Source: an uncultured Candidatus Saccharibacteria bacterium (lineage in GTDB: Bacteria > Patescibacteriota > Saccharimonadia > Saccharimonadales > CAZDQS01). Taken from it: 64,000 bases of DNA. The translations under genes were made by a program, and so were the position numbers. The notes under the pieces are model-generated. The model saw only the letters and a program-made list of their open reading frames with translations, was not told the DNA's origin and ran no database searches. The stretch spans positions 85,988 to 149,987 of the forward strand of contig CAZDQS010000003.1 in the NCBI GenBank assembly GCA_964507855.1, given 5' to 3'. Of the stretch, positions 1 through 64,000 are shown one piece after another. Within the stretch, counting starts at the first letter, position 1. Every line of letters begins with the position of its first letter.

Positions 1-825
1 TTCGCAACATCAGGTTGGTTCCTGCATGCCGCTCGGCATGCAACTCCGGACATTATGTTCGCGACGCTTGTTTTGTTGCTACTCGCAGGCATTGTTCTGA
101 GGGCGGAATATCGCAAGCCTTGGCTGCTGGCAGCCTGTATGCTGGTCCTGATAACGCTCCTGTACGTACCTGGCATGGTGTGGCTCATAGCCGCCGGATT
201 TATCTGGCAGCGCCGCACGCTGGTTCGGGAAATGAACGACACCCCATTCTGGAGTGGCGTATTCGGCGGTCTTGCATTGCTGTTCGTGCTGCCGCTCGTG
301 TGGGCTTTCATCCAGGACAGGACACTTTTGCTCACATGGCTCGGCCTACCGCAAGCCGTGCCATCCATTGCTGATGTCGGACAAAACCTTATTAATATTC
401 CACGCAGTTTCTTCTTTGCTGGTTTGCCAGACCATGACAAATGGCTACCGGGAACCCCGCTCATAAATGCCTTTGTTGCCGCCATGTTCATCTTGGGAGC
501 ATATGCCGCCACGAAACAGTGGAAGCTCGATCGTATACGATCTATCGCAGCGGTATTTGCACTCGGTATCATAAGCATCTCTTTGGGCGGACCCGTCAGC
601 TATACACTATTCGTACCGTTTGTGTATCTGATTGTCACAGTTGGAATAGCAGATATGCTTGAGCGCTGGCTGGAAGTCTTTCCGCGCAACCCGTTCGCGA
701 GGAACCTTGGTATCGTCCTTATGGCAGGTGTCGTCGGCCTCACAGTGTATTACCAGCTCACGCATTATTTCGTGGCATGGCCGAATACGCCAGAAACCAA
801 AGACACGTTCTCTGTAAGACTTTGA
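1..825 (+). CDS. polytopic membrane protein, C-terminal portion (start lies left of window); possibly GT-C/PMT_2-type glycosyltransferase
   Basis: Frame 1 is open from nt 1 to the stop at 823-825, and track ORF 55..825 is its tail. It has >=5 hydrophobic segments (FATLVLLLLAGIVL, LLAACMLVLITLLYV, GGLALLFVLPLVWAF, AVFALGIISISLGG, LGIVLMAGVVGLTVYY). Family assignment is by general resemblance only. Confidence 0.55.
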   Translation, partial: FATSGWFLHAARHATPDIMFATLVLLLLAGIVLRAEYRKPWLLAACMLVLITLLYVPGMVWLIAAGFIWQRRTLVREMNDTPFWSGVFGGLALLFVLPLVWAFIQDRTLLLTWLGLPQAVPSIADVGQNLINIPRSFFFAGLPDHDKWLPGTPLINAFVAAMFILGAYAATKQWKLDRIRSIAAVFALGIISISLGGPVSYTLFVPFVYLIVTVGIADMLERWLEVFPRNPFARNLGIVLMAGVVGLTVYYQLTHYFVAWPNTPETKDTFSVRL

Positions 826-860
826 TAAAATACGTAAGTAACAGGTAAGGGAGTTATTCA

Positions 861-1154
861 ATGAGTAGGTTTGACCAAGCGAAAATGCTGATGAAGGTAA
901 AGAAGCTGCAAAAAGAGCTTCAGAAGCAAGTTATCACTGTTGAAAAGGGCGACGGCGCTGTAAAAGTTGAGATAACGGGCGAGCAGAAGATTAAGAAAGT
1001 CCACATCGATCCTGATTTTGTTGACCTCGATGATATTGGCCAGCTTGAGCGCTGGATCGAAGAAGCGGTCAAAGAAGCAATCCAGACCAGCCAGAAGTTG
1101 GCTGCCGAAAAGATGCAGCCAATGATGGGCATGCTCGGCAATCTCGGCCTGTAA
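861..1154 (+). CDS. ybaB: YbaB/EbfC family nucleoid-associated protein
   Basis: 97 aa with KVKKLQKELQK...AVKVEITGEQKIKKVHIDPDFV, typical of YbaB. SD AAGGGAG lies 7 nt upstream. It is followed directly by recR, a conserved pairing. Confidence 0.9.
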   Translation: MSRFDQAKMLMKVKKLQKELQKQVITVEKGDGAVKVEITGEQKIKKVHIDPDFVDLDDIGQLERWIEEAVKEAIQTSQKLAAEKMQPMMGMLGNLGL

Positions 1155-1163
1155 GGATTCGTC

Positions 1164-1772
1164 GTGCATATTCTACCCCCGGCGTTAGAGGACGTTATAG
1201 AGGCACTCGGTTCGCTGCCTGGCGTCGGCCCGCGCACAGCCGAACGGTATGCGTACTATCTCCTGAAAACCGATCCCGCCAAAGCCAAGAAAATTGCCGA
1301 ATCCCTGGACAAACTCCATGACGGTATAAATTTCTGTAAAAAGACGTTTGCCTTAGTAGAGAAGGGTAAGGAGCTTTCCGATCTTTACACCGATCCGTCA
1401 CGTGACAAACGGCTCGTGGCCGTGGTCGCGGAACCGCTCGACATTGTCGCCCTGGAGAAAACCGGCCAATACAAAGGCACATATCATGTGCTCGGCGGCC
1501 TTGTTTCGCCGATAGACGGCATTGGCCCCGAGCAATTGCACATCCAGGAATTAATCCAACGCATTGATGATGATAAGGTAAAGGAAGTCATCCTTGCCAC
1601 CAACGCCAGCGTGGAAGGCGAATCAACTGCCCTGTATATTCAGCAGCAAATAGGTGACCGTAAGGTGAAGATAACTCGGCTTGCCCGCGGCCTGCCAATT
1701 GGCGTCGACCTGGAGTACGCCGACCAAATCACGCTCAGCCGTGCGCTCGAAGGCCGCACCACACTCTCTTAA
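1164..1772 (+). CDS. recR: recombination protein RecR (variant lacking the Cys4 zinc finger)
   Basis: 202 aa with a GTG start. HhH motif 'LPGVGPRTAERYAYYLL', Toprim 'VILATNASVEGESTALYI' and 'RLARGLPIGVDLEYAD' are present. Only one Cys remains where CxxC..CxxC normally sits. Confidence 0.92.
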   Translation: MHILPPALEDVIEALGSLPGVGPRTAERYAYYLLKTDPAKAKKIAESLDKLHDGINFCKKTFALVEKGKELSDLYTDPSRDKRLVAVVAEPLDIVALEKTGQYKGTYHVLGGLVSPIDGIGPEQLHIQELIQRIDDDKVKEVILATNASVEGESTALYIQQQIGDRKVKITRLARGLPIGVDLEYADQITLSRALEGRTTLS

Positions 1773-1826
1773 GCCTTACCTGGCTTTGATGTAAACACTC
1801 TCGCTACCTGATACACTAGTACCAAT

Positions 1827-2834
1827 ATGACAGCTACCAAAGACATCCAGAAGCTCATTGACGGAGCCCAAACCATTGTTATTATCCAGGCCGACAATCC
1901 CGACGGGGACAGCCTGGCCAGCAGCCTTGCGCTCGAAGAAATACTCGGCGACATGGGCAAAACAACACACCTCTACTGCGGTGTTGATATACCCGACTAC
2001 CTGAAGCACATCCAGGGCTGGGACCGCGTAAACAAAGATATCCCGTCACAATTTGACCTCAGCATCATCGTCGATACGAGCGCCATAATTTTGCTAGAGA
2101 AACTAGAAGAAAGCCCGTACCGTGCCTGGGTCGCCTCGCGACCGGTCATAGTCATCGACCACCACAGCGACGTGGCTTGCGACATACCGTATGCCACGCT
2201 TGTCCATAACGACAACGATGCCGTTGCAACCGGTGAGGCCATCTACAAACTAGCCACTACCCTCGACTGGCCGCTCAACACACAAGCCAAGACCCATATC
2301 GCCAGTTCAATTTTGTCAGATTCACTCGGACTGGCAAGTGAAGGTACAACTCCCCAAACCTATCGGATTATGGCGGACCTGATTGAAGGTGGTGTTAACC
2401 GGCCAATGCTCGAGGAGGCCCGCCGCGCTATCAACAAAATGCCCGAATCCATATTCCGCTATAAAGCTCGGCTCATAGAGCGGACAGAACTCTACGCCGA
2501 CAACCAGCTCGCTGTTGTGAGCGTACCGCACGACGAGCTAATGGAATACAGTCCGCTCTACAATCCCGCACCGCTCATTCAAACTGATATGCTACAGACA
2601 GAAGGTGTTTTGGTCGCGATTGTGCTAAAGCACTACAAGGACGGCAAAGTAACCGGCTCTATCCGCTGCAATAGCGGCGCAAACATCGCCGCCGAGCTTG
2701 CCGCGTCCTTTGGGGGCGGCGGGCATCCGTATGCTGCCGGATTCAAGGTTACGGATGGGCGGCAGTTTAATGAAATTAAATCAGAGTGTATCACCAAAGC
2801 AACCGAACTACTGCAAACCAATGACAGGAATTAA
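1827..2834 (+). CDS. DHH/DHHA1 family phosphoesterase (NrnA-like oligoribonuclease/pAp phosphatase)
   Basis: 335 aa with 'NPDGDSLAS', the DHH motif in 'VIVIDHHSD', and DHHA1 'GGGGHPYAAGF'. Confidence 0.85.
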   Translation: MTATKDIQKLIDGAQTIVIIQADNPDGDSLASSLALEEILGDMGKTTHLYCGVDIPDYLKHIQGWDRVNKDIPSQFDLSIIVDTSAIILLEKLEESPYRAWVASRPVIVIDHHSDVACDIPYATLVHNDNDAVATGEAIYKLATTLDWPLNTQAKTHIASSILSDSLGLASEGTTPQTYRIMADLIEGGVNRPMLEEARRAINKMPESIFRYKARLIERTELYADNQLAVVSVPHDELMEYSPLYNPAPLIQTDMLQTEGVLVAIVLKHYKDGKVTGSIRCNSGANIAAELAASFGGGGHPYAAGFKVTDGRQFNEIKSECITKATELLQTNDRN

Positions 2835-4245
2835 TACTGTGAATATCTACAACACACTCACCAAGAAAGTCGAACCCTTTCAGCCCCTCAAAGACAAAGT
2901 AGCCAGCATATACTCCTGTGGTCCGACGGTATACGATCACATCCACATCGGCAACCTCAGTGCGTTTATCATGGCCGATACACTGCGCCGCGCCCTTACG
3001 GCACACGGATATAGCGTCAAGCACGTCATGAACTATACCGATGTCGACGACAAAACCATCCGCCGTAGCCGTGAAAACTATCCGGATCTGTCACCCGAAG
3101 AAGCACTGCAGAAACTTACCCGACACTACGAAACCATCTTCCTCGCCGACATGGAGGCTATCGGCAACGATACTGCCAGCGTGACGTTCGTGCGGGCCAC
3201 AGAGCACATCGCCGACATGCAGGCACTCATCACCAAGCTCTACAAAGACGGCTTCGCGTATATTGCCGACGACGGCGTGTATTTTTCTATTGAGAAGTAC
3301 CGAGCTAGCGGCAAAACCTACGGTCAACTCGTAGAGCTCAGCGAAGAAAGTGTTGCCTCAGCACGGATCGATAACGACGAATACGACAAAGCCTCACCGC
3401 ATGATTTCGCACTCTGGAAGACACGCAAGGACAATGAGCCGGCATGGGATTTTGAACTCGACGGGCACAATCTCCTCGGCCGGCCTGGCTGGCACATCGA
3501 ATGTTCGGCTATGAGCAAGTCCGCGTTCGGCCAGCCGTTTGACATCCACACTGGCGGCGTTGACCTCATGTTCCCGCACCACGAGAACGAAATCGCCCAA
3601 AGCACTGCCGGCGAAGACGAGGTGTTCGCACGCTACTTCGTGCACAATGAACACTTACTCGTCGAAGGCCGCAAGATGAGCAAATCACTGGGCAATTTCT
3701 TCACGCTGCGCGAAATCCAGGAGCACGGATACGACCCATTGGCCTTCCGCATGATGATGCTGCAGTCCCACTATCGAAGCCAGAGCAACTTCACCTGGGA
3801 AGCACTCCAGGCTGCCAACAACAGACTGTCCGCGCTCAAGCGGATGGCAGAAAACTGCTGGCAAGCCACTGATACCGGCAAAGCTGCCAACGCCGAGATA
3901 GACGACACCAAGCAACATATCTTGAATGCACTCGCCGATGACTTGAATACGCCCATTGCGCTGGCTGAGCTGAGTAAGCTCGAGAACGCTATTGATACAG
4001 ATGGCCTGCACATTGACGCCCGTGAATCATTTACTAGCTTCCTTGCGTGGCTTGATGGTGTCTTTGGCCTGAAGCTTGCCAAGATCGACGACATAACCCC
4101 CGATCAGAAATTACTACTGACGGAGCGCGCAGCTGCACGAGAGGCTAAAGACTGGGCCATGTCGGATGAGCTAAGGAGCAAGCTTGCAAAAGAGGGCATA
4201 GAAGTCCGCGACAGCTCCCACGGCCAAATCTGGCACAAATTATAA
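2821..4245 (+). CDS. cysS: cysteine--tRNA ligase
   Basis: ATG 2821 ([12 protein letters not shown]...) was chosen within the longer track ORF 2698..4245. Class I motifs 'HIGN' and 'KMSKS' are present. It overlaps the upstream gene by 14 nt. Confidence 0.92.
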
Positions 4246-11261: not shown

Positions 11262-11336
11262 TGGGACGTCGCCAAGTGGTAAGGCACCGGGTTTTGGTCC
11301 CGGCATTCGGGGGTTCGAATCCCTCCGTCCCAGCCA
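11262..11336 (+). tRNA. tRNA-Gln (anticodon UUG), CCA encoded
   Basis: TGGGACG-TC-GCC-AAGTGGTAA-GGC-A-CCGGG-TTTTGGT-CCCGG-CATTC-GGGGG-TTCGAAT-CCCTC-CGTCCCA-G-CCA folds as a cloverleaf. It is close to the E. coli tRNA-Gln sequence as I recall it. Confidence 0.9.
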
Positions 11337-11380
11337 AAGAATAAGCACTATGCCCGTGTGGTATGGTGCTTATTCTTTTT
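11337..11380 (+). terminator. rho-independent terminator after tRNA-Gln
   Basis: AAGAATAAGCAC (11337-48) pairs with GTGCTTATTCTT (11366-77), followed by TTT. Confidence 0.75.
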
Positions 11381-11404
11381 GTCTTGTAGGTAAGGAATTC
11401 GAAC

Positions 11405-11502
11405 GGGAGTGCCAGTGACACTCCCCGGCACCCCTGCCTGAAAGATGCCGGTGGCATGTTTCAGGTGGCTGTTCGCAAAACTATTTTTTGTTTTGCCAGC
11501 CA
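11405..11502 (+). other. three consecutive strong hairpins preceding the displaced tRNA-Gln 3' fragment
   Basis: GGAGTG-CCAGTGA-CACTCC (11405-23) has the same loop family as 11087-11103. CCTGAAAgATGCC-GGT-GGCATgtTTTCAGG lies at 11436-65. TGGCTG-ttc-GCAAAAC-tatttttt-GTTTTGC-CAGCCA lies at 11466-502. Confidence 0.35.
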
Positions 11503-11504
11503 GG

Positions 11505-11529
11505 CGAATCCCTCCGTCCCAGCCAAAGA
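11505..11529 (+). repeat. 25-nt direct repeat of the tRNA-Gln 3' end (att-like scar)
   Basis: CGAATCCCTCCGTCCCAGCCAAAGA at 11505-11529 is identical to 11316-11340 (T loop to 4 nt past CCA). It lies 17 nt from the first island gene. Confidence 0.85.
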
Positions 11530-11546
11530 GAACACACGGGATTGTG

Positions 11547-12251
11547 CTAGATAATTTGCAGCTCTAGTTTTTCTTTAGTCTTTTGCCAACCAGGGAATTT
11601 TAATTCAAGCAGCTGATAAAATTTTGCGTCATGATTTTTATACTTCATGTGACATAGCTCATGCGTAATTACATAATCGATCGCTTCTTTTGGTGCTTGA
11701 ATAAGTAAAGGGTTGAGGACGATACGTTCACCCTTCACATAGCTTCCCCAGCGTTTAGCCATAGCTCGCACAGTAAGCTCGGGCTTAGTTTTATAATCAA
11801 ATTTTTTGAGCATTTCCTCATAACGATCATTGAAAATAATGTGACGGCGCTTCTTATACCAACGATCTAGTAGCAGGCGATTACGCCCACCGTCGTTTGT
11901 TGCTTTGGTCGTCGTAATAGTTAATTTGCCCTTGCTTAGTGCAACGGAGTTTTTCTCACCGGAAGTCACTACTAACTTATATTGTCTTCCGAGATAGTAG
12001 AAGCTCTCGCCAGACACATATTCTTTTGCGTAATGCTTACGACGATATTTCTCAAAAAACGTGAGCTGCTTATTCAGCCACATCCATTTCTTCTTTAAGA
12101 ATGATTCAATTCGCTCGTCACTCGCACCCTCTGGAGCTTTGAGTGTAATCGTGAGACAAGGCTCAACAGTTAGACTGAGCGTTTTGCGATCTTGTCTAAT
12201 GAGTCCGTATTTATAACGGTGAGTGCCATAAATGAATGTCCGCTCAATCAT
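11547..12251 (-). CDS. DUF45/YgjP-like HExxH metallopeptidase (M48-type), R-M associated
   Basis: 234 aa with 'ITHELCHMKYKNHDAKF' near the C-terminus. Its start overlaps the hsdR stop by 4 nt. Confidence 0.8.
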   Translation of the reverse strand: MIERTFIYGTHRYKYGLIRQDRKTLSLTVEPCLTITLKAPEGASDERIESFLKKKWMWLNKQLTFFEKYRRKHYAKEYVSGESFYYLGRQYKLVVTSGEKNSVALSKGKLTITTTKATNDGGRNRLLLDRWYKKRRHIIFNDRYEEMLKKFDYKTKPELTVRAMAKRWGSYVKGERIVLNPLLIQAPKEAIDYVITHELCHMKYKNHDAKFYQLLELKFPGWQKTKEKLELQII

Positions 12252-57671: not shown

Positions 57672-57813
57672 TGAGCAAATAGTTGCCACTTTCGCCCCTG
57701 TTCGGTATAATTTGTCCGACAGTGTGCTCATGGGAAAAGAGCAGCCCGAGAGGCGAATTCATTTCGCCCCCGGCGCGATGAGAAAAACCGCAGGTTTGTC
57801 TCATTACTGTTGT

Positions 57814-57888
57814 TCCGGGGTAGCTCAGCGGTAGAGCGGGTGGCTGTTAACCACTAGGTCGAAGGTTCGAATCCTTTCCCCGGAGCCA
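57814..57888 (+). tRNA. tRNA-Asn (anticodon GUU), CCA encoded
   Basis: TCCGGGG-TA-GCTC-AGCGGTA-GAGC-G-GGTGG-CTGTTAA-CCACT-AGGTC-GAAGG-TTCGAAT-CCTTT-CCCCGGA-G-CCA folds as a cloverleaf. Confidence 0.92.
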
Positions 57889-58019
57889 AACCAAGCACTA
57901 ACAGATGTAGATCGGGTTCCTAGACCGGTCTTTTCTATTTTCTTAGGTTACCTCCTATCTGTTATTTAGTTCGAATCCGGTTTCCCTAAACTTTGAATAT
58001 GTAGCTTAGTTGTTGGAAC
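57889..58019 (+). repeat. cassette leader block, copy 1
   Basis: About 85% identical (111/131 by hand alignment) to 59174..59305. It contains a nested inverted repeat AACAGAT...ATCTGTT and an inner hairpin followed by TTTTCT. Confidence 0.8.
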
Positions 58020-58164
58020 CGCTGAAAACCATATAACTTAACTTCACACCCCCTTTAAACAGTTCCAAAAGTGACCCGTTCCCCCATGGCGACCCAGCGG
58101 TTGAAAACCCAACATGGTTCCGTGACCATTGTTAGTATGCTTATGCTTTGCGGTTAGGTGAAAT

Positions 58165-58596
58165 GTGTATCTAATGTATTGTAATCTACAACATGATGAG
58201 TTTAATCAGCCCAATAATCCGCTGACTGACGCTTATGAGAACGCCATCGGTACATGCTTGGCTGCATATCCAATATACGGCAAACCTCTTAGTGAGGTAT
58301 TTCCAATCGCTGAAATAGTATCCGACTACGAAAATATTAGAGATACAAGGCTTACAATTGTAAACGAGAAGATAGAGATGACGAAACAAAAGATTCGCGA
58401 GCAAGGTCGAACCGACCTACACATTCTTTACGAACTTCAAAAGTACGTATTCATCAGGGAGTGTATAAGTAATAGAGTATTTAACCATCTCAGCATTAAA
58501 CATCCCGACCTATCTATTCCCAACTTCTCCGAAATCTATACTCAAGACCTCGAATCCTGTGGCGTACAACTAAAAATAGAAAGGGCGCATGAATAA
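58165..58596 (+). CDS. hypothetical protein (cassette 1, gene 1)
   Basis: A 143-aa ORF with an uncertain start (GTG 58165 or ATG 58174). No motif was recognised. Its stop shares 1 nt with the next ATG (TAATG). Confidence 0.5.
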   Translation: MYLMYCNLQHDEFNQPNNPLTDAYENAIGTCLAAYPIYGKPLSEVFPIAEIVSDYENIRDTRLTIVNEKIEMTKQKIREQGRTDLHILYELQKYVFIRECISNRVFNHLSIKHPDLSIPNFSEIYTQDLESCGVQLKIERAHE

Positions 58597-59084
58597 TGGC
58601 AACACAACGATATGTAATCATTAAACTACTAGAGCAGTTGAAAGAAGGTGACGAGTTTTCTCCAGAAAATTACCCTCTACACATCACTATTGTTCCAAGT
58701 TTTCAGCTTGAAAGAATGGACGACGTTTTGTTGGGTAAAATAAAACGGCTTTGTGACAACCTCAAGGCATTTACCCTTACAGCCGGACAGGATGAGTTTT
58801 TTGGCCCAAATAGAGAGGTTCACGTTACGACAATGGTTATGAATGATGAGATTCGCCGACTACACAATAGACTGGTAGGTATCTTAGCGGATGCAGGTGC
58901 TATCTTCGATGAGCCTGAATATATGTTTGAGAATTACCACGCACATGCGACCGTTCAAAGAGCCACTCGTTTGTATAGCAACGACTCAGTCACGGTAGAG
59001 GATGTAACAATTATTGACAAGTTACCAAATGGTAATCCGGACAAACGAAAATTATTAAAAACGCTATATTTTTCTAAACGATAG
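58596..59084 (+). CDS. 2H phosphoesterase superfamily protein (LigT/cyclic phosphodiesterase-like)
   Basis: 162 aa with two HxT motifs at the expected spacing, 'PLHITIV' and 'HAHATVQ'. Confidence 0.68.
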   Translation: MATQRYVIIKLLEQLKEGDEFSPENYPLHITIVPSFQLERMDDVLLGKIKRLCDNLKAFTLTAGQDEFFGPNREVHVTTMVMNDEIRRLHNRLVGILADAGAIFDEPEYMFENYHAHATVQRATRLYSNDSVTVEDVTIIDKLPNGNPDKRKLLKTLYFSKR

Positions 59085-59173
59085 TTTTGATAATTAAAAG
59101 ATGTAAGCTAAAGTAAAGCGAGCCTAAAATTAGGTGGTAAAAGCTCTTGGTTCGAATCCAGTCCCCGGAGCCA
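59085..59173 (+). pseudogene. degenerate tRNA-Asn copy closing cassette 1
   Basis: It starts right after the stop codon. GATGTAAGCTAAAGTAAAGCG parallels the tRNA GGGGTAGCTCAGCGGTAGAGCG. The 3' 25 nt GGTTCGAATCCAGTCCCCGGAGCCA differ at 2 positions from the tRNA. The 5' acceptor strand is missing. Confidence 0.75.
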
Positions 59174-59305
59174 AACCAAGCACTAACAGAGGTAGACCGG
59201 TTTCCTAGACCGGTCTTTTCTATTTTCTCAATCTACCTCTTATCTGTTATTTAGTTCGAGCCTGGTTTCCCTAAAGATGAACTATGTGGTGTGGTTGTTG
59301 GAACT
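59174..59305 (+). repeat. cassette leader block, copy 2
   Basis: It matches 57889..58019. The inner hairpin AGACCGGT-ttcctag-ACCGGTCT plus TTTTCT lies at 59194-59220, inside the inverted repeat AACAGAGGTAGA...TCTACCTCttaTCTGTT. Confidence 0.8.
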
Positions 59306-59434
59306 GTCGCAAGCGACTAATTCTTACTTTTGGCCCCTATTGTTTGGTTTCGAAACTGACCAGTCAGCCTCATAGGGACTGTGCAGTCCAAAAGTCGACC
59401 GGGTTCCGTGACCGAAAGCTGATACTATATCTCT

Positions 59435-60475
59435 ATGAAAACCTTTCTAAAACTACCGAAACTTAAGCCTGGCGACCAAGTTGGCATTGTCTCTCCTTCG
59501 GCTGGCCTGCCAGGCTTATTTCCATGGGTACAGGATTTAGGACTGGAAAGACTACAGAACGTCTTTCAGCTGACTCCAAAAGAGTACCGGACTACTCGAC
59601 AAATGGGTTCGTCGCTTGAAGACCGTGCTCAGGACATTATGGCTGCTTTTAGTGATCAGGTTAACAAAGCTGTGTTTGCCTCTATTGGTGGAGAAGACCA
59701 AATAAAGCTCATTAAACTACTCGACCCTAAAGTATTTACTGACAACCCTAAACCATTTTTCGGATACAGCGACAATACTCATCTGCATAATTTTCTATGG
59801 GGATTAGGTATTCCTTCTTACTATGGCGGTGGGATTATGACCGAATTGGCCTTTCAGCAAAAAATCCCAGACCTTACCATTAAATACTTAAACCAGGCGC
59901 TTTTTGAAACAGGCGAGCTAGAAGTCGAGTCTTCTAGTGAATTCAACGACATCGGACTTGACTGGTCAGCAAAAGAAAACCTGGATAAACCACGGCAATT
60001 TGAGCCGAATGATGGACCACAATGGGATGGTAACAAAAGTGCGGAAGGTATACTGTGGGGCGGATGCGTCGAGTCACTTATTGTACAGTGTTCTACCGAA
60101 AAGTATTTACCTAAGCAAGAAGACCTGGAAGGTACGATTTTATTCATCGAAACTGCGGAGGATATCCCTGATGCATGGATTATCGAGTATCTGCTGACGG
60201 GCTTTGGCGAACGTGGGTGGTTTGATGTCTTTCAGGGTGTATTGGTTGGACGACCAAAATCATGGGAATTCGACAAACAAAATTCGCCTGAGCAGAAAGT
60301 AGCCTACAAGAAGCAGCAGCGCGAGACTATCGTAAAAACGGTCCGAGAATACAATGTCAATATTCCTATTGTTCAGAATTTAGATTTTGGTCACACAGCT
60401 CCACAAATTGTTATGCCTTATGGCGGCTTGGCAAGGATAGATTCTACCGCACATAGAATTATCCTAACTTATTAA
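59435..60475 (+). CDS. S66 family LD-carboxypeptidase / MccF-like serine peptidase (cassette 2)
   Basis: 346 aa with 'GDQVGIVSPSAG', the nucleophile motif 'FFGYSDNTHL', and 'DFGHTAPQ'. Confidence 0.85.
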   Translation: MKTFLKLPKLKPGDQVGIVSPSAGLPGLFPWVQDLGLERLQNVFQLTPKEYRTTRQMGSSLEDRAQDIMAAFSDQVNKAVFASIGGEDQIKLIKLLDPKVFTDNPKPFFGYSDNTHLHNFLWGLGIPSYYGGGIMTELAFQQKIPDLTIKYLNQALFETGELEVESSSEFNDIGLDWSAKENLDKPRQFEPNDGPQWDGNKSAEGILWGGCVESLIVQCSTEKYLPKQEDLEGTILFIETAEDIPDAWIIEYLLTGFGERGWFDVFQGVLVGRPKSWEFDKQNSPEQKVAYKKQQRETIVKTVREYNVNIPIVQNLDFGHTAPQIVMPYGGLARIDSTAHRIILTY

Positions 60476-60565
60476 TTTTTGATAATTCACAGATGTAAGC
60501 TAAGGTAGGGCGAGCCTAGAAATAGGTGGTAGTTATCGCTGGTTCGAATCCTTTCCCCGGAGCCA
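60476..60565 (+). pseudogene. degenerate tRNA-Asn copy closing cassette 2
   Basis: It starts right after the stop codon and is about 80% identical to 59085..59173. The last 25 nt (60541-60565) are identical to tRNA-Asn 57864-57888. Sequence after CCA diverges from the leader blocks. Confidence 0.8.
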
Positions 60566-60870
60566 ATTTTGACTATTAGGGTCAAGCAATAACCCAGAGA
60601 AAGGTTTCAACAGATACAGTTGGAGCCTTTTTTGGTTCAAAGTAAGGTTCGCAAGTAGCAATCGTAAAATCTTGTTCTTTTGCTGTGGTTGCGAACTTTC
60701 AAACAAATCTTTGGCTCTTGAGGCTAGTCGTAACAGATGTTCTGCTGTTACTACGAAACTTTTATCATTGTTTGTAAACTCAACAAGTTTGCGGTCTAAT
60801 TCGTCCATCTCAGCCTTTAGCTTAGTTACATATTTGTCATAGTCAGCGACAGTAATTCTTGTCAGCTATT
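60533..60870 (-). pseudogene. 5'-truncated remnant of a large serine recombinase (C-terminal region only)
   Basis: The open frame begins right after a TAG. It reads 'LTRITVADYDKYVTKLKAEMDELDRKLVEFTNNDKSFVVTAEHLLRLASRAKDLFESSQPQQKNKILRLLLANLTLNQKRLQLYLLKPF', a pattern I associate with the C-terminal coiled-coil/tail of serine integrases. There is no catalytic domain. Confidence 0.5.
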
Positions 60871-60885
60871 ATACAATAATGTTAT

Positions 60886-61068
60886 ATGGCAAACGACGAA
60901 CTACCAGAGTATCTAACACTTAGTGAGGTCAGCAAGATGCTGAAAGTGCATCCTAACACCTTACGTAACTGGGATAAGAGCGGTACACTCAAGCCCATTC
61001 GGATTGGCGAACGCAAAATACGACGATACAAAAAAGAAGACGTAATGAAGTTTTTGGAGCAAAAATGA
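60886..61068 (+). CDS. excisionase-family (MerR-type) helix-turn-helix DNA-binding protein
   Basis: 60 aa with 'LTLSEVSKMLKVHPNTLRNWDKSGTLKPIRIGERKIRRYKKEDV'. Confidence 0.8.
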   Translation: MANDELPEYLTLSEVSKMLKVHPNTLRNWDKSGTLKPIRIGERKIRRYKKEDVMKFLEQK

Positions 61069-61736
61069 CCGAGTTAAATAAAGCCACGCTTGCGTTTGTT
61101 GAAAAACTTAAAAACCAAGAAAATGTTCTAGGGATTGTGTTATTCGGCTCTTGGGCAAGAGGCAACCAAAGAGCGACCAGCGACGTTGATTTAGTTGTAA
61201 TCGTCAAAGAAGGGTATAGAAGGTCTGTTGAACAGCTTGATGGTCAGGTGTTTGAAATAATATACGTCACTGCCAAAGGTGCAAAAGATTACTACAAGAC
61301 TGACCTTGATGCCACTCAAAGATTTTGGAAGATTGCTAAAATACTTTTTGATAGAGATGGAAGTGTTGAGGGCGTTAAGCAGTTTGCAATCAACCTGACA
61401 AGCGAGGGCAAAAAACCACTTAGCGACGATACTTTACGCCATTTTGAATTTGATGCACAAGACCAAATTAGCTTTGCGAAAGATGCTCACAAGAATGGAG
61501 ATATGGCAACGGCAAATCTAATACTATCTATTAAGATGGCTGCTCTTACCGAAATATACTTTGACACTATTAAAGAATGGCGACCAGCTCCAAAACAGGT
61601 ACTAAGTGAGATTGAAAGCAGAGATAGCGAGTTGCACGGCTACTTCGTACAATTCTTTGCCGACGATATAAGCTTTGACGATAAGGTTTCTGTTGCTTCT
61701 GATATTGTTAAAACAATTTTTGAAGACAAGGCATAG
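61065..61736 (+). CDS. nucleotidyltransferase-domain protein with helical C-terminal domain (KNTase/ANT-like architecture)
   Basis: 223 aa with 'GIVLFGSWARGNQRATSDVDLVVIV' (GS..RG..DxD). It has an ATGA overlap with the HTH gene. Confidence 0.72.
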   Translation: MTELNKATLAFVEKLKNQENVLGIVLFGSWARGNQRATSDVDLVVIVKEGYRRSVEQLDGQVFEIIYVTAKGAKDYYKTDLDATQRFWKIAKILFDRDGSVEGVKQFAINLTSEGKKPLSDDTLRHFEFDAQDQISFAKDAHKNGDMATANLILSIKMAALTEIYFDTIKEWRPAPKQVLSEIESRDSELHGYFVQFFADDISFDDKVSVASDIVKTIFEDKA

Positions 61737-61739
61737 CAA

Positions 61740-62336
61740 ATGATTAAGGCTGTACTCTTTGATGCTGATGGCGTTCTAACGCTACCAGAAGACGTTTTCT
61801 CGGTAGTTTATGCTCGTTCACACGGACTAGATACCAAACCATTTGAAAACTTTTTTAAGAATGACTGGTATCCTATTGTTACAGGCAGTAAAGATTTGAA
61901 GGATAGCATTGCTGCTAACCCTGAGCTTTGGCAATGGAACGGTACTACCGACGAGCTGCTTGATTACTGGTTCAAAACCGAAGATGTCCGCAACGAGGAA
62001 TTACTTACAGAAATTGGTAAGCTAGCCAATCAAGACATACCTTGTTATCTTGCAACCGACCAGGAAAAATACCGTGCTGAGTATATGAAAACTGTTATGT
62101 TTAAGGATATTTTTAGTGGCTACTTTGTGTCAGCTGAGCTTGGAACTACAAAAACAGACCCAAGATTTTTTGAGTTGGTATTGCAGGAGTTGGGCGTCAA
62201 GCACCCTGGAATACAACCAGCTGAGGTCGTCTTCTTTGATGACAGCCAATCAAAAGTAGATACAGCCAAAGCAACAGGAATTGACGCAAGGTTATTTGAA
62301 AGGAATGACCAAGTGAGGGACTTGTTAAATGCCTGA
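61740..62336 (+). CDS. HAD-IA family hydrolase
   Basis: 198 aa with motif I 'AVLFDADGVLT', 'YLATDQEK' and 'VVFFDDSQSKVDTAKATG'. Confidence 0.83.
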   Translation: MIKAVLFDADGVLTLPEDVFSVVYARSHGLDTKPFENFFKNDWYPIVTGSKDLKDSIAANPELWQWNGTTDELLDYWFKTEDVRNEELLTEIGKLANQDIPCYLATDQEKYRAEYMKTVMFKDIFSGYFVSAELGTTKTDPRFFELVLQELGVKHPGIQPAEVVFFDDSQSKVDTAKATGIDARLFERNDQVRDLLNA

Positions 62337-62856
62337 ACCACTTGGCTTAAAACGTGGGACAGTACACTTGATTTCGCATCAATCTTCTTGGGCAACTGAT
62401 TTTGAAAAAGAAAAACTGCAACTTCTTAGTGCGATTGGTGACTATATTTCAACTATTGAACACGTCGGTAGTACATCCATACCTGGCTTAGCTGCTAAGC
62501 CTATCATTGATATGCTTGCCGAAGTTGATAACTTGTCCGTCTATAAACAGCTCATTGAGCCGCTTGCTGCACTTGGATACGAATTTATGCCTGAGCGTAT
62601 CTTTATTGACAGAGTGTTCTTCCCAAAAGGTGCAAGAGAAAACCGCACCCATCATCTCAGTCTTGTAGTAAAGGATAGCGACCAGTGGAAAAAGACTTTG
62701 GCTTTTAGGGATTACTTACGCAAAAACTCTGCTGCAAGGGATAAGTATCAAACACATAAAACCGAGCTTGCGGCAAAGTACCCAGACGACAGAGCCAGTT
62801 ACACTAAAGCCAAAGAACAACTGATTGAGGAGATATTAGATGAGGCATTGATATGA
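62329..62856 (+). CDS. GrpB/UPF0157 family protein (NTase fold)
   Basis: 175 aa with 'IEHVGSTSIPGLAAKPIIDML', 'HHLSLVV' and 'FRDYLRKNSAARDKY'. It overlaps the upstream gene by 8 nt. Confidence 0.85.
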   Translation: MPEPLGLKRGTVHLISHQSSWATDFEKEKLQLLSAIGDYISTIEHVGSTSIPGLAAKPIIDMLAEVDNLSVYKQLIEPLAALGYEFMPERIFIDRVFFPKGARENRTHHLSLVVKDSDQWKKTLAFRDYLRKNSAARDKYQTHKTELAAKYPDDRASYTKAKEQLIEEILDEALI

Positions 62857-63329
62857 GTGAGTTTGAAAAATCACTAGAACTTGCCAAGCAACGGCAAGCG
62901 GTTGAGCTACAGGCTGTACTTGATGTACATAAAAGTGAACGTGTTGTAGTAGTTGGCGGCACTTGTACTGGCAAAAGTACATTGATTGAACATCTAACTG
63001 ACGCTCAAGATATGGACAAGCTGGTCTTTCCGCTTTTGACGCAGGAAGAAGCTGACTATGTTTGTCAGACGCCTTGGACACCTGAAATTGGGGAAACTAT
63101 GACACGCTTAACCAAAGAGCGGGTCAAAGTACAACCAGGTAAACCTGTATTTGGCACTGTGGTACTAGATGCTGACCGTATAGTGTATTTGAAAATAAGT
63201 GATGATTTATTACGTGAACGCACTGCTGCACGAAGTGTGTCATTTGAGGACGCTAAGAATATGCAGCAGCATATTGAAGCAGAAGTGGCTGCATCAGGGT
63301 TACCAATCACAGAGTTTGAGGTAGGTTAG
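62853..63329 (+). CDS. P-loop NTPase/kinase-like protein
   Basis: 158 aa with Walker A 'VVGGTCTGKSTL' and a 4-nt overlap upstream. Confidence 0.62.
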   Translation: MSEFEKSLELAKQRQAVELQAVLDVHKSERVVVVGGTCTGKSTLIEHLTDAQDMDKLVFPLLTQEEADYVCQTPWTPEIGETMTRLTKERVKVQPGKPVFGTVVLDADRIVYLKISDDLLRERTAARSVSFEDAKNMQQHIEAEVAASGLPITEFEVG

Positions 63330-63331
63330 AG

Positions 63332-64000
63332 GTGTATATTGCGTACTTTGATGAAACTGGCGACGATGGCTATCCAAAACGAGAAACCGAGCTATTTGTG
63401 CTAACGTCTGGGTACGCTCATCACGCTAACTGGCAAACCAACTACAAAAAAACCTTAGATTTTAGAATGTATCTTCACAAAACTTATAAGTTTCCAATTA
63501 AACTGGAGATGCACACAAAGTATTTTCTGCTCAATAAAAACCCTTATCGTCAATTTGGCTGGGATGAGAAAACACGCTTAAAGATAGTTCAGGAGTATGC
63601 TGATTTTATTGCAAGCTCAGACTTTGAGTTTATAAACGTTGCAATCAATAAGCTCAAGATAACTAAGACCAACCAAACAATGTATAAACCTATCCTTGAT
63701 GCCGCATTAAAGTTCAACGTTCAGCGAATTGAAAATACTATCAAGGCATCGCAACCAGGCACAAAGTTCTTGATTATCAGTGATGAGGGTCGTATTGGTA
63801 CGATGCGTAAAACAACTCGCAGAATACAGAAAATCAACTTCATTCCTTCAAAGATTGACGGACGAAGTTACAGGCAAGAAATTGACCTACTTATTGAAGA
63901 CCCTTTACCTAAAAACTCAAACCAATCATACTTCATACAGTTTTGCGATTATGTTTCTTTCTTCGCATATCTTAGGCTTGTGAAGAAGCTGAATGCAGGT
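63332..64000 (+). CDS. DUF3800 family protein, 3' end outside window (not in ORF track)
   Basis: My own translation from GTG 63332 is open to nt 64000. It reads 'VYIAYFDETGDDGYP...FLIISDEGRIGTMRK...NSNQSYFIQFCDYVSFFAYL', which matches the DUF3800 pattern (N-terminal DExG, C-terminal IQxxD). Confidence 0.62.
   Translation, partial: MYIAYFDETGDDGYPKRETELFVLTSGYAHHANWQTNYKKTLDFRMYLHKTYKFPIKLEMHTKYFLLNKNPYRQFGWDEKTRLKIVQEYADFIASSDFEFINVAINKLKITKTNQTMYKPILDAALKFNVQRIENTIKASQPGTKFLIISDEGRIGTMRKTTRRIQKINFIPSKIDGRSYRQEIDLLIEDPLPKNSNQSYFIQFCDYVSFFAYLRLVKKLNAG

What the first reader, a model, noticed from the sequence alone, without database searches (positions are those of the whole stretch)
57814..60565. 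tRNA-Asn followed by two integrase-less cargo cassettes, each opened by a conserved leader and closed by a degenerate tRNA-Asn copy
Seen: the architecture is tRNA-Asn | leader (131 nt) | 2 ORFs | tRNA-like block (89 nt) | leader (132 nt, ~85% identical) | 1 ORF | tRNA-like block (90 nt) | unrelated DNA. The tRNA-like blocks begin immediately after the cargo stop codons and are ~80% identical to each other. They parallel the real tRNA from the D arm onward, and their last 25 nt match its 3' end (23/25 and 25/25), but they lack a 5' acceptor strand. Copy 2 has T-stem changes that are partly compensatory. The leaders contain a nested inverted repeat plus a terminator-like hairpin, and a second short conserved box (GGTTCCGTGACC) lies 25-50 nt before the cargo start. 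Established: tandem accretion of islands at tRNA genes leaves repeated 3' tRNA segments. Inference: these ~1.3-kb units are too small to encode their own recombinase and are bounded by the same module pair. They therefore look like gene cassettes stacked by a trans-acting recombinase, possibly the now-truncated serine recombinase next door, using a tRNA-derived attachment site. That would be an integron-like logic with a different chemistry.
Basis: partly seen in the sequence, partly recalled or inferred. Interest (0 to 1): 0.72.

Follow-up and report, generated by a model that had tools for sequence, protein, structure and literature searches.

The report
Stacked recombinase-less gene cassettes at tRNA-Asn
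Two small gene cassettes with no recombinase of their own sit head-to-tail at the 3' end of the tRNA-Asn gene of a Saccharibacteria genome, and related genomes carry none, different ones or the same ones at that site, so this is a real cassette-swapping hotspot of a kind already known in a few other bacteria.

Summary
The architecture is real. It reads tRNA-Asn | ~245-nt leader | 2 ORFs | 89-nt block | leader | 1 ORF | block, and the block ends repeat the tRNA 3' end (23/25 and 25/25).

It is not a local duplication. The same leader/block pair bounds about 11 complete units, with different cargo, in other Saccharibacteria genomes and metagenomes. A sister version sits at tRNA-Met. No unit encodes a recombinase.

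Cassette 2 is ~87% identical to a copy in a genome whose core gene is only 59% identical. Two syntenic relatives have an empty site.

The DNA after block 2 is the last ~105 codons of a large serine recombinase. Intact homologues abut intact tRNA-Asn at the identical junction.

Hybrid terminal blocks place the cassette crossover in or next to the T-loop. The recombinase-bearing element itself joins at ...GAGCCA|, so the neighbouring enzyme is only a candidate.

The first 55-60 nt of the blocks are not demonstrably tRNA-derived.

Best reading: trans-mobilised, CIME/pseudo-SCC-like cassettes accreted at a tRNA site. The closest precedent is the Dehalococcoides ssrA islands. This is a new variant of a known kind.

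The parts
57814..57888 (+). tRNA-Asn(GTT), the anchor and attachment site. Its T-arm segment GGTTCGAATCC is the core shared with both blocks.
   Evidence: ARAGORN; Rfam tRNA, 71 bits.
57889..58134 (+). Leader 1. It holds a terminator-like hairpin (~57909-57931 plus T-run) nested in an outer inverted repeat, reiterated motifs, and ends with the box GGTTCCGTGACC (58116-58127).
   Evidence: nhmmer map; alignment of 22 leaders; fold; box count.
58165..59084 (+). Cargo of cassette 1. ORF 58165-58596 (143 aa) matches no family. ORF 58596-59084 (162 aa) is a 2H phosphoesterase / 2'-5' RNA ligase superfamily protein.
59085..59173 (+). Block 1. It is a 60-nt element-specific arm that contains TTGATA-16-TAAAGT, followed by the core and tRNA 3' part (59149-59173, 23/25).
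59174..59421 (+). Leader 2. Terminator-like hairpin at 59194-59216; box at 59402-59413.
59435..60475 (+). Cargo of cassette 2: an LD-carboxypeptidase (peptidase S66, MccF-like), 346 aa.
   Evidence: Pfam; the ~87% identical copy in L004.
60477..60565 (+). Block 2, the terminal and hybrid block. It has an element-type 5' T-stem strand (GCTGG) and a host-type 3' part (60541-60565, 25/25 to the tRNA).
60533..60856 (-). Remnant of a large serine recombinase gene (last ~105 codons). It is 94% identical in DNA to the intact gene of L036. Its last 11 codons are the complement of the tRNA part of block 2.
60886..64000 (+). Rest of the recombinase-less derivative of element E: an HTH_17 (excisionase-like) gene at 60886-61068, then nucleotidyltransferase, HAD hydrolase, GrpB, a P-loop protein and DUF3800. 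It runs off the window.
   Evidence: Pfam; HTH_17 also lies in the intact elements; BLAST to L038; L039.

Best explanation
The region is a tandem array of two small non-autonomous integrative cassettes inserted by site-specific recombination into the tRNA-Asn gene of a Saccharibacteria chromosome.

Composite attachment site. In its free form each cassette carries one composite site made of four parts:
- an element-specific arm of about 60 nt (the 5' part of the block);
- the core GGTTCGAATCC (the T-loop and its edges);
- a copy of the tRNA 3' end;
- the ~245-nt leader.

What integration does. Crossover in or just 3' of the T-loop gives the tRNA a new 3' end and a new terminator, which is the start of the leader. 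It leaves a hybrid partial tRNA copy, the block, behind the cargo. The tRNA stays a usable target afterwards, so repeated events stack cassettes head to tail.

The enzyme. A recombinase acts in trans. The most obvious candidate is the large serine recombinase (LSR) family whose intact members lie convergent with this same tRNA in relatives. Only a 3' remnant of that gene is left here, so the array in this genome is probably frozen unless another copy exists elsewhere.

Status of each step. Shown: the anatomy, its spread, cassette-level variation, horizontal transfer, the identity of the neighbouring remnant, and the empty sites. Inferred: the crossover position, the circular intermediate, action in trans, and the identity of the enzyme.
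For: Spread and absence of a recombinase
- The same leader plus block bounds 11 complete units (0.8-7.3 kb) in the window, L004, L017, L018, L020, L021 and L026.
- No recombinase was seen in any unit, by reading the ORF translations of the units and by Pfam on the window cargo and 10 other cargo proteins.
- A tRNA-Met version exists in L011, L019 and L022.

Variation and transfer
- Cassette 2 is ~87% identical between the window and L004, leader and block included. The adjacent glucosidase gene is only 59% identical.
- Syntenic relatives L036 and L040 have tRNA-Asn joined directly to the same flank ATTTTGAC... with no cassette.
- The RT/bAvd cassette is followed by a leader in L006 and by other DNA in L017.
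- The ParE cassette occurs in three contexts.

Crossover position
- Both terminal blocks next to the recombinase flank carry host-specific 3' parts. In the window this is CCTTTCCCCGGAGCCA after an element-type GCTGG. In L026 the block carries the host acceptor strand CGTCGGA.

The neighbouring gene
- The remnant belongs to a Resolvase + Recombinase + Zn_ribbon family.
- Intact members end inside intact tRNA-Asn genes.

Precedent
- Dehalococcoides ssrA islands (PMC3146451) show insertion in the T-loop, an LSR on the reverse strand next to attL, and 15 islands without an integration module.
Against: - No autonomous element carrying the same leader/block pair was found in about 15 units or in four viral-contig scans.
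- The recombinase-bearing element E joins at ...GAGCCA|. The tRNA 3' part next to its 94%-identical flank is host-specific. That is a different sublocation from the inferred cassette crossover.
- The five loci sampled with an intact LSR gene at an intact tRNA-Asn junction (L030, L031, L032, L034, L036) contain no leader/block cassette.
- The crossover position rests on only two terminal blocks.
- The window tRNA keeps a host-type 3' part even though it is cassette-proximal. That needs conspecific cassette shuffling, selection or gene conversion.
- No circular junction or excision product was observed.
- About 190 nt of the leader have no assigned role.
Confidence: 0.6

Rival explanations
1. 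The units are fossils. Each was once an autonomous island with its own integrase that integrated at tRNA-Asn and later lost everything except cargo and att arms. Nothing moves as a cassette today.
For: Tandem accretion followed by deletion is well documented (tycheposon preprint; ICESt1-type elements cited in PMC3146451). The neighbouring element in the window is itself a deletion derivative. No master element or circle has been seen.
Against: None of the 11 complete units keeps any integrase remnant. In 4 of 4 cases read, the cargo ORFs end within 0-3 nt of the block, and the leader ends 20-50 nt before the cargo. That looks like a defined minimal unit, not the result of random deletions. The same small cassette is found at 87% identity in a genome whose core gene is 59% identical.
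Confidence: 0.2
2. Cassette exchange is driven by homologous recombination after DNA uptake. The conserved tRNA, leader and block serve as homology arms, and no dedicated site-specific recombinase is involved.
For: Leaders (~245 nt) and blocks (~90 nt) are 80-90% identical between units and genomes. By my recollection, not a tool result, Saccharibacteria are naturally transformable.
Against: This does not explain how the module pair arose. It does not explain the exact left boundary at ...GCCA| in every leader, degenerate junctions included, nor the hybrid terminal blocks, nor the parallel tRNA-Met family. Identity of 80-85% over 90-245 nt makes a poor substrate.
Confidence: 0.1
3. The block-plus-leader module is mainly an RNA device. 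It would be a small RNA transcribed from the TTGAYA-16-TAAAGT motif in the block to the leader terminator, or a processing or insulating signal between genes.
For: A sigma-70-like motif was called by the scan in block 1 and is visible by eye in all 12 block sequences listed. A terminator-like hairpin follows ~100 nt downstream. Leader 2 folds better than shuffles (z = -2.9).
Against: There is no Rfam match. RNAalifold on 22 leaders finds almost no covariation: 2 of 17 pairs, and the covariation term is not favourable. The T-stem is not maintained in the blocks (my hand count). Leader 1 and both block folds are not better than shuffles. An RNA role would not explain the mobility pattern.
Confidence: 0.05
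4. This is a local segmental duplication unique to this genome.
For: Within the window the two units look like a tandem repeat of non-coding modules.
Against: The cargo of the two units is unrelated. The modules occur in 3 genome loci and 17 metagenome loci with other cargo.
Confidence: 0.01

Closest known systems
Dehalococcoides ssrA-specific genomic islands (McMurdie et al. 2011, PMC3146451)
   Same: Tandem islands lie downstream of a single-copy tRNA-like gene. Each is bounded by a direct repeat of its 3' end, with further conserved nucleotides around the repeat. Insertion is inferred in the T-loop. A ~540-aa large serine recombinase lies on the reverse strand next to attL. Fifteen islands have no integration module and were read as cis-mobilizable elements.
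   Different: The target here is tRNA-Asn (and tRNA-Met), not tmRNA, and the host is Saccharibacteria. Many units are far smaller (0.8-1.5 kb, 1-2 genes). The boundary is a ~335-bp composite (block plus leader) rather than a 20-bp repeat with a 15-bp motif. The LSR element and the cassettes appear to use different sublocations of the tRNA. No integration module with the same ends was found.
SCCmec and pseudo-SCC composite islands of staphylococci (from my knowledge and from the discussion in PMC3146451)
   Same: Cassettes integrate at the 3' end of a conserved gene through large serine recombinases (CcrAB/CcrC). Recombinase-less cassettes stack in tandem between direct repeats and can be moved in trans.
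   Different: The target there is a protein gene (rlmH/orfX), the elements are 20-60 kb, and there is no tRNA-derived site or long conserved leader. Whether an LSR acts on the present cassettes is untested.
Cis-mobilizable elements (CIMEs) and tandem accretion in the ICESt1 family (Pavlovic et al. 2004, cited in PMC3146451)
   Same: The units keep attL/attR-type ends, lack recombination and transfer genes, and accumulate next to an autonomous element at the same site.
   Different: CIMEs are recognisable deletion derivatives of a known ICE that shares their att sites. Here no parent element with the leader/block ends is known, and the units look minimal.
Integron gene cassettes (from my knowledge)
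   Same: Arrays of 1-2-gene units with no recombinase of their own, a recombination site starting right after the stop codon, variable cargo rich in toxin-antitoxin and accessory genes, and a recombinase gene next to the primary site.
   Different: There is no IntI tyrosine recombinase and no attC hairpin architecture. Cargo lies in both orientations and appears to have its own promoters. The site is tRNA-derived and about 335 bp long. The adjacent recombinase is a serine enzyme, and its role is unproven.
Tycheposons and Prochlorococcus tRNA-seeded islands (bioRxiv 10.1101/2020.12.28.424599)
   Same: Neighbouring elements at a tRNA are separated only by partial tRNA copies, with newer arrivals pushing older ones inward. 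Degenerate remnants build the island. The genomes are small and streamlined.
   Different: The tycheposons described there were found as integrase-carrying elements. The partial tRNA is about 40 nt without a long shared leader. Integrase-less cassettes are not described there as a regular unit.

Membership tests
Integron | An IntI-type tyrosine recombinase gene next to the primary site attI | tested here: not met
   The adjacent recombinase remnant belongs to a Resolvase + Recombinase + Zn_ribbon (serine) family. No integrase-like ORF was seen when reading ORFs of 170 aa or more between 23 and 52 kb or the islands. Not every ORF was scanned with Pfam.
Integron | attC sites: 60-140-bp imperfect palindromes that fold as hairpins | tested here: not met
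   The blocks are not palindromic, and their folds are no better than shuffles (z = -1.7 and -0.8). They end in a direct copy of the tRNA 3' end.
Integron | Mostly promoterless, co-oriented cassettes expressed from a common promoter | tested here: not met
   Cargo lies on the minus strand in the ParE cassettes of L018, L020 and L021, and on both strands in the 7-kb unit of L020. Each leader starts with a terminator-like hairpin.
Cis-mobilizable element (CIME) / tandem accretion | The unit is flanked by direct repeats of the attachment site (attL/attR) | tested here: met
   The tRNA 3' end is repeated at 59149-59173 and 60541-60565. Shuffles expect 0.
Cis-mobilizable element (CIME) / tandem accretion | No recombination or transfer genes inside the unit | tested here: met
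   Pfam on the window cargo and on cargo of other units. ORF reading of 11 units.
Cis-mobilizable element (CIME) / tandem accretion | A cognate autonomous element with the same att arms | tested here: not met
   None was found among about 15 leader-bearing units or in four scans of viral contigs. The sampling is small, one genome scan and one metagenome scan with a single 21-25-nt pattern each.
Large-serine-recombinase islands at a tRNA-like gene (Dehalococcoides ssrA-GI / SCC type) | A large serine recombinase gene on the reverse strand directly at attL | tested here: met
   A remnant lies at 60533-60856(-). Intact homologues (P0069, P0230, P0244) are convergent with, and overlap, intact tRNA-Asn genes in L030, L032 and L036.
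Large-serine-recombinase islands at a tRNA-like gene (Dehalococcoides ssrA-GI / SCC type) | Insertion point inside the T-loop, with the 3' end duplicated | tested here: inconclusive
   The hybrid terminal blocks of the window and L026 fit a crossover in or next to the T-loop. That is only two cases. The LSR-bearing element itself joins after GAGCCA.
Large-serine-recombinase islands at a tRNA-like gene (Dehalococcoides ssrA-GI / SCC type) | The recombinase acts on the cassette ends | not testable with these tools
   This needs a recombination assay or junction reads.
tRNA gene or pseudogene (for the blocks) | Cloverleaf recognised by tRNA models, or similarity over the whole tRNA | tested here: not met
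   ARAGORN and Rfam (E up to 1) call only the real tRNA. The first 55-60 nt are no more similar to the tRNA 5' part than shuffled sequence.
Tycheposon | The element carries its own integrase beside a partial tRNA repeat | tested here: not met
   The units hold no recombinase. The partial tRNA repeats are present.

The most novel reading that the evidence does not exclude
Saccharibacteria may possess a dedicated cassette-capture platform analogous to an integron but built from different parts. A tRNA gene (Asn or Met) would serve as the permanent docking site. A ~335-bp composite site (block plus leader) would mark cassettes that appear to carry their own promoters. A large serine recombinase of the family that overlaps the tRNA 3' end would insert and excise them in trans, giving these reduced-genome episymbionts a shared pool of toxin-antitoxin, Fic, DGR and immunity genes. 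The recurrent, nucleotide-precise truncation of the recombinase gene would then mark a second leader type derived from the recombinase gene itself.
Probability: 0.25. Interest if true: 0.8.

Novelty: new variant of a known kind. Interest (0 to 1): 0.58.

Why it matters
Saccharibacteria and other CPR bacteria have tiny genomes, and little is known about their mobile elements. My literature searches found nothing on this locus type.

A tRNA-anchored array of exchangeable one- or two-gene cassettes would explain how they keep a flexible accessory gene pool. The cargo seen so far includes toxin-antitoxin pairs, Fic proteins, a diversity-generating retroelement and an MccF-like peptidase.

The conserved leader and block give a simple sequence handle for cataloguing that pool in metagenomes.

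If a serine recombinase proves to move the cassettes, it would add a compact tRNA-directed integration system with a natural stacking property. If not, the locus is still a clean example of accretion at a tRNA gene in a phylum where none has been described.

Tried and rejected
- Rfam, at gathering thresholds and at E up to 1, found only the tRNAs.
- Four scans of viral contigs with leader, block and junction patterns found nothing.
- I tested whether the blocks are whole degenerate tRNA copies. I had come to believe this from GGGGTAAGCT-type matches. Global and local alignment against shuffles did not support it, so I dropped it.
- RNAalifold on 22 leaders gave no useful covariation.
- The serine recombinase in L021 is not detectably related in its C-terminus to the window remnant, so it says nothing about this locus.
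- I considered whether the T-arm-like copy inside the leader co-varies with the target tRNA (Asn against Met). The differences do not discriminate, so I dropped it.
- I noticed an 11-7-11 dyad across the tRNA|leader junction. It is not kept in the tRNA-Met version, so I did not use it.
- Logan contigs of the source organism are 100% identical to the window and break at the repeats, so they give no polymorphism information.
- I could not reach the far end of the recombinase-less element beyond 64.5 kb.
- PADLOC and NCBIfam did not assign the two cassette-1 proteins or the S66 peptidase to a defence system.
Full report
**1. What is in the window**

ARAGORN finds tRNA-Asn(GTT) at 57814-57888. Its last 25 nt, GGTTCGAATCCTTTCCCCGGAGCCA, recur at 59149-59173 (23/25) and at 60541-60565 (25/25). 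One hundred shuffles gave no such matches.

Each recurrence closes an 89-nt block, 59085-59173 and 60477-60565. The two blocks are 83% identical. Each begins 0-1 nt after a cargo stop codon.

The tRNA and block 1 are each followed by a leader. The two leaders are 85% identical over the first 131 nt. A profile built from several copies shows the homology running ~245 nt, to 58134 and 59421, where it ends with the box GGTTCCGTGACC.

Each leader opens with a terminator-like hairpin (GACCGGT-TTCCTAG-ACCGGTC plus a T-run) nested in an outer inverted repeat.

The cargo is as follows:
- Cassette 1 holds an orphan 143-aa ORF and a 2H-phosphoesterase-family ORF.
- Cassette 2 holds a peptidase S66 (LD-carboxypeptidase, MccF-like) ORF.

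GC falls from about 0.53 to 0.41 exactly at the tRNA and stays low to the end of the window. The organism is a member of the Saccharibacteria, judged from the record titles of the related loci.

**2. Corrections to the observation**

The first 55-60 nt of the blocks are not detectably related to the 5' two-thirds of tRNA-Asn. Global and local alignments score within the shuffle distribution (z <= 1.6). Neither ARAGORN nor Rfam at E up to 1 calls the blocks. Only the last 25-31 nt are tRNA-derived.

By my hand count on the sequences, 10 blocks from different loci keep only 3-4 of the 5 T-stem pairs. The apparent compensatory change in block 1 is therefore not evidence of an RNA constraint.

The DNA after block 2 is not unrelated DNA (section 5).

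**3. The modules are widespread and bound different cargo**

I ran one genome scan and one metagenome scan, each with a short leader pattern. They returned 3 and 17 loci. Profile searches then mapped leaders and blocks in those loci.

- L004, another Saccharibacteria MAG, has the same glycosyltransferase-glucosidase-tRNA-Asn synteny as the window. After the tRNA it reads leader | AIR-synthase-like ORF | block | leader | the same S66 peptidase | block | a diverged leader | further genes.
- L020 reads leader | Fic plus a small ORF | block | leader | 7 kb with SNF2 and other helicases and a Fic protein | block | leader | ParE toxin and antitoxin on the minus strand | block.
- L017 reads tRNA-Asn | leader | reverse transcriptase plus bAvd (a diversity-generating retroelement) | block.
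- L006 has the same RT and block, followed by another leader.
- The ParE cassette recurs in L018, L020 and L021 with different neighbours.
- L011, L019 and L022 show the same leader family behind tRNA-Met, with a block that ends in the tRNA-Met acceptor strand.

In all I count 11 complete units of 0.8-7.3 kb. I saw no recombinase in any of them, by reading their ORF translations and by Pfam on the window cargo and 10 other cargo proteins.

**4. Evidence for horizontal movement and for presence/absence**

Cassette 2 is about 87% identical between the window and L004 across leader, gene and block. The adjacent core glucosidase gene is 59% identical.

Two syntenic relatives have no cassette at all. 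In L036 and L040 the tRNA-Asn is joined directly to ATTTTGAC.... In L036 this flank matches the sequence after block 2 in the window over the 34 nt compared, and the homology continues at 94% for about 320 nt.

The blocks are not unique to this genome. Relatives do vary at cassette level. No larger element with an intact integrase encloses the units in the window.

**5. The neighbour is the 3' end of a large serine recombinase gene**

The minus-strand ORF 60533-60808, with in-frame homology up to 60856, has 68 short homologue clusters of 72-175 aa.

An exhaustive phmmer search with the longest fragment found full-length proteins of about 500-516 aa. They align with the fragment exactly at their C-terminus. 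They carry the Resolvase, Recombinase and Zn_ribbon_recom domains.

The family has more than 1,200 members. Most of the full-length members listed end in ...NWL followed by a tail, and that tail is the reverse-complement translation of a tRNA 3' end.

In L030, L032/L034 and L036/L037 an intact gene of this family runs convergently into an intact tRNA-Asn. The intact elements, which I call E, also encode a Phage_CRI-like replication protein, a SpoVG-like protein, an HTH_17 protein and variable restriction or defence cargo.

The window keeps only the last ~105 codons of the recombinase and then goes straight to the HTH_17 gene. It is therefore a deletion derivative of E.

**6. Where the crossovers lie**

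For E, the flank after CCA is 94% identical between the window and L036. The tRNA 3' part next to it is host-specific in each genome, CCTTTCCCCGGA in the window against CCGGCCCCGGGA in L036, and each matches its own 5' acceptor strand. E therefore joins at or after GAGCCA.

Other right ends support recombination at that point. B' (GTTATRACTTCCTCTATCGTGGKGAGCCA) is joined to the recombinase flank in L024 and L038 and to a leader in L023. Several degenerate junctions keep only G[AG]GCCA in front of a leader.

For the leader/block cassettes the evidence points elsewhere. Block 2 of the window combines an element-type 5' T-stem strand (GCTGG) with the host-type 3' part (CCTTT...). The terminal block of L026 carries that host's unusual acceptor strand, CGTCGGA. 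This is what a crossover inside the shared core GGTTCGAATCC predicts. That core is the T-loop and its edges, the same sublocation inferred for the Dehalococcoides ssrA islands.

This inference rests on two genomes. It also requires that the cassette now nearest the tRNA brought a host-compatible 3' part.

**7. Most likely mechanism**

The cassettes are non-autonomous integrative units. Their composite site is arm, core, tRNA 3' copy and leader.

Integration regenerates the tRNA and gives it a new terminator. The tRNA remains a usable target, so units stack.

The enzyme must act in trans. The serine recombinase family at this tRNA is the obvious candidate. Three facts keep that link unproven:
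- the crossover sublocations differ;
- the five loci sampled with an intact recombinase gene at an intact tRNA-Asn junction contain no leader/block cassettes;
- arrays exist without an adjacent recombinase (L017, L020).

About 190 nt of the leader have no assigned function. This stretch holds reiterated motifs:
- TAACAGAGGTA and its complement;
- a second GGTTCGAATCCAGTCCCC;
- a 3' repeat of the leader start.

A recombination synapse with several binding sites is one possible reading, and it is untested. A promoter-like TTGAYA-16-TAAAGT in the blocks, facing the leader terminator, could make a short RNA. There is no covariation or Rfam support for that.

**8. Comparison with what is known**

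The closest published case is the family of Dehalococcoides ssrA islands (PMC3146451). It shares:
- tandem islands behind a tRNA-like gene;
- T-loop insertion;
- a large serine recombinase on the reverse strand at attL;
- fifteen islands without an integration module, which the authors read as cis-mobilizable elements.

SCC/pseudo-SCC composite islands, ICESt1-type CIMEs and tycheposons share parts of this logic. Integrons share the cassette idea, but the locus fails their defining features.

The following are new:
- the phylum;
- the very small, tightly packed units;
- the long conserved composite boundary shared across genomes whose core genes have diverged to 59-70% identity;
- the two tRNA targets;
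- the absence so far of any master element.

My searches of the paper library found nothing describing this in Saccharibacteria or Patescibacteria.

**9. Verdict**

The finding is a real, interesting but not unprecedented system, which I rate as a new variant of a known kind. Interest is 0.58. The bolder reading, a dedicated cassette platform driven by a serine recombinase, is not excluded. I give it a probability of about 0.25.

Noticed in passing
window 11262-11529 (island to ~21900): tRNA-Gln (11262-11336) is followed 189 nt later by an exact 21-nt copy of its 3' end (CGAATCCCTCCGTCCCAGCCA, 11505-11525), and the match continues through AAGA. The identity starts inside the T-loop. After it comes a low-GC (0.37-0.46) island of about 10 kb with a type I restriction-modification system and no integrase. 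This is a second tRNA-seeded island in the same window.
   Followed up: partly
window 60856 (minus-strand gene); L024 ~10001; L041 ~10001: The truncated serine recombinase genes start at exactly the same nucleotide (...|ATTACTG) in at least three unrelated contexts. Each has a close intact counterpart (window against L036: dN/dS 0.02). The breakpoint is therefore recurrent and precise, and the ~320-nt gene end behaves like a second kind of leader. I have no explanation.
   Followed up: partly
window 60533-60565; L030 1978-2019; protein set: In this large serine recombinase family the last ~11 codons are encoded by the complement of the tRNA-Asn 3' end. The C-terminal tail of the enzyme therefore changes with the host tRNA, or with whatever has been inserted there.
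   Followed up: yes
window 57712-57813 (promoter-like TTGCCA-17-TATAAT at 57683-57711): A ~100-nt segment between a strong promoter-like site and tRNA-Asn is conserved in L005, L036 and L040 but absent in L004. It folds into two hairpins, and RNAalifold counts six pairs kept through changes on both sides. Rfam has no match. It may be a co-transcribed small RNA or a structured 5' leader.
   Followed up: partly
L031 ~11510-11850 (minus strand): The tRNA-Asn next to an intact recombinase gene is interrupted in the anticodon loop by an insertion of roughly 200 nt, so ARAGORN does not call it. It may be a group I intron.
   Followed up: no
L017 oriented 515-3285; L006: One cassette carries a complete-looking diversity-generating retroelement: RVT_1 reverse transcriptase, bAvd and a 268-aa candidate target protein. 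The contig L006 is labelled Clostridiaceae (DUPE01000005.1), but the 93-nt RT-proximal block I compared is identical to that of the Saccharibacteria-type locus L017 and the RT coding region reads the same, so it may be mis-binned.
   Followed up: partly
L036 8843-9958; L038 8805-9926; L032 8817-9941: The intact recombinase-bearing element encodes a ~370-aa protein next to the recombinase, and in L036 and L038 it hits Phage_CRI (the replication initiator of filamentous phages; the L038 hit is faint, and L032 has no hit on record). This suggests the element replicates as a circle, plasmid-like or phage-like.
   Followed up: no
L001-L003, L039 (Logan contigs of SRR7082966, SRR7082976, SRR7082984 and SRR7082982): Short-read assemblies of the source organism break at, or within a few tens of nt of, the leader and block repeats. 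Arrays of this kind will therefore be systematically fragmented and under-counted in metagenome assemblies.
   Followed up: yes
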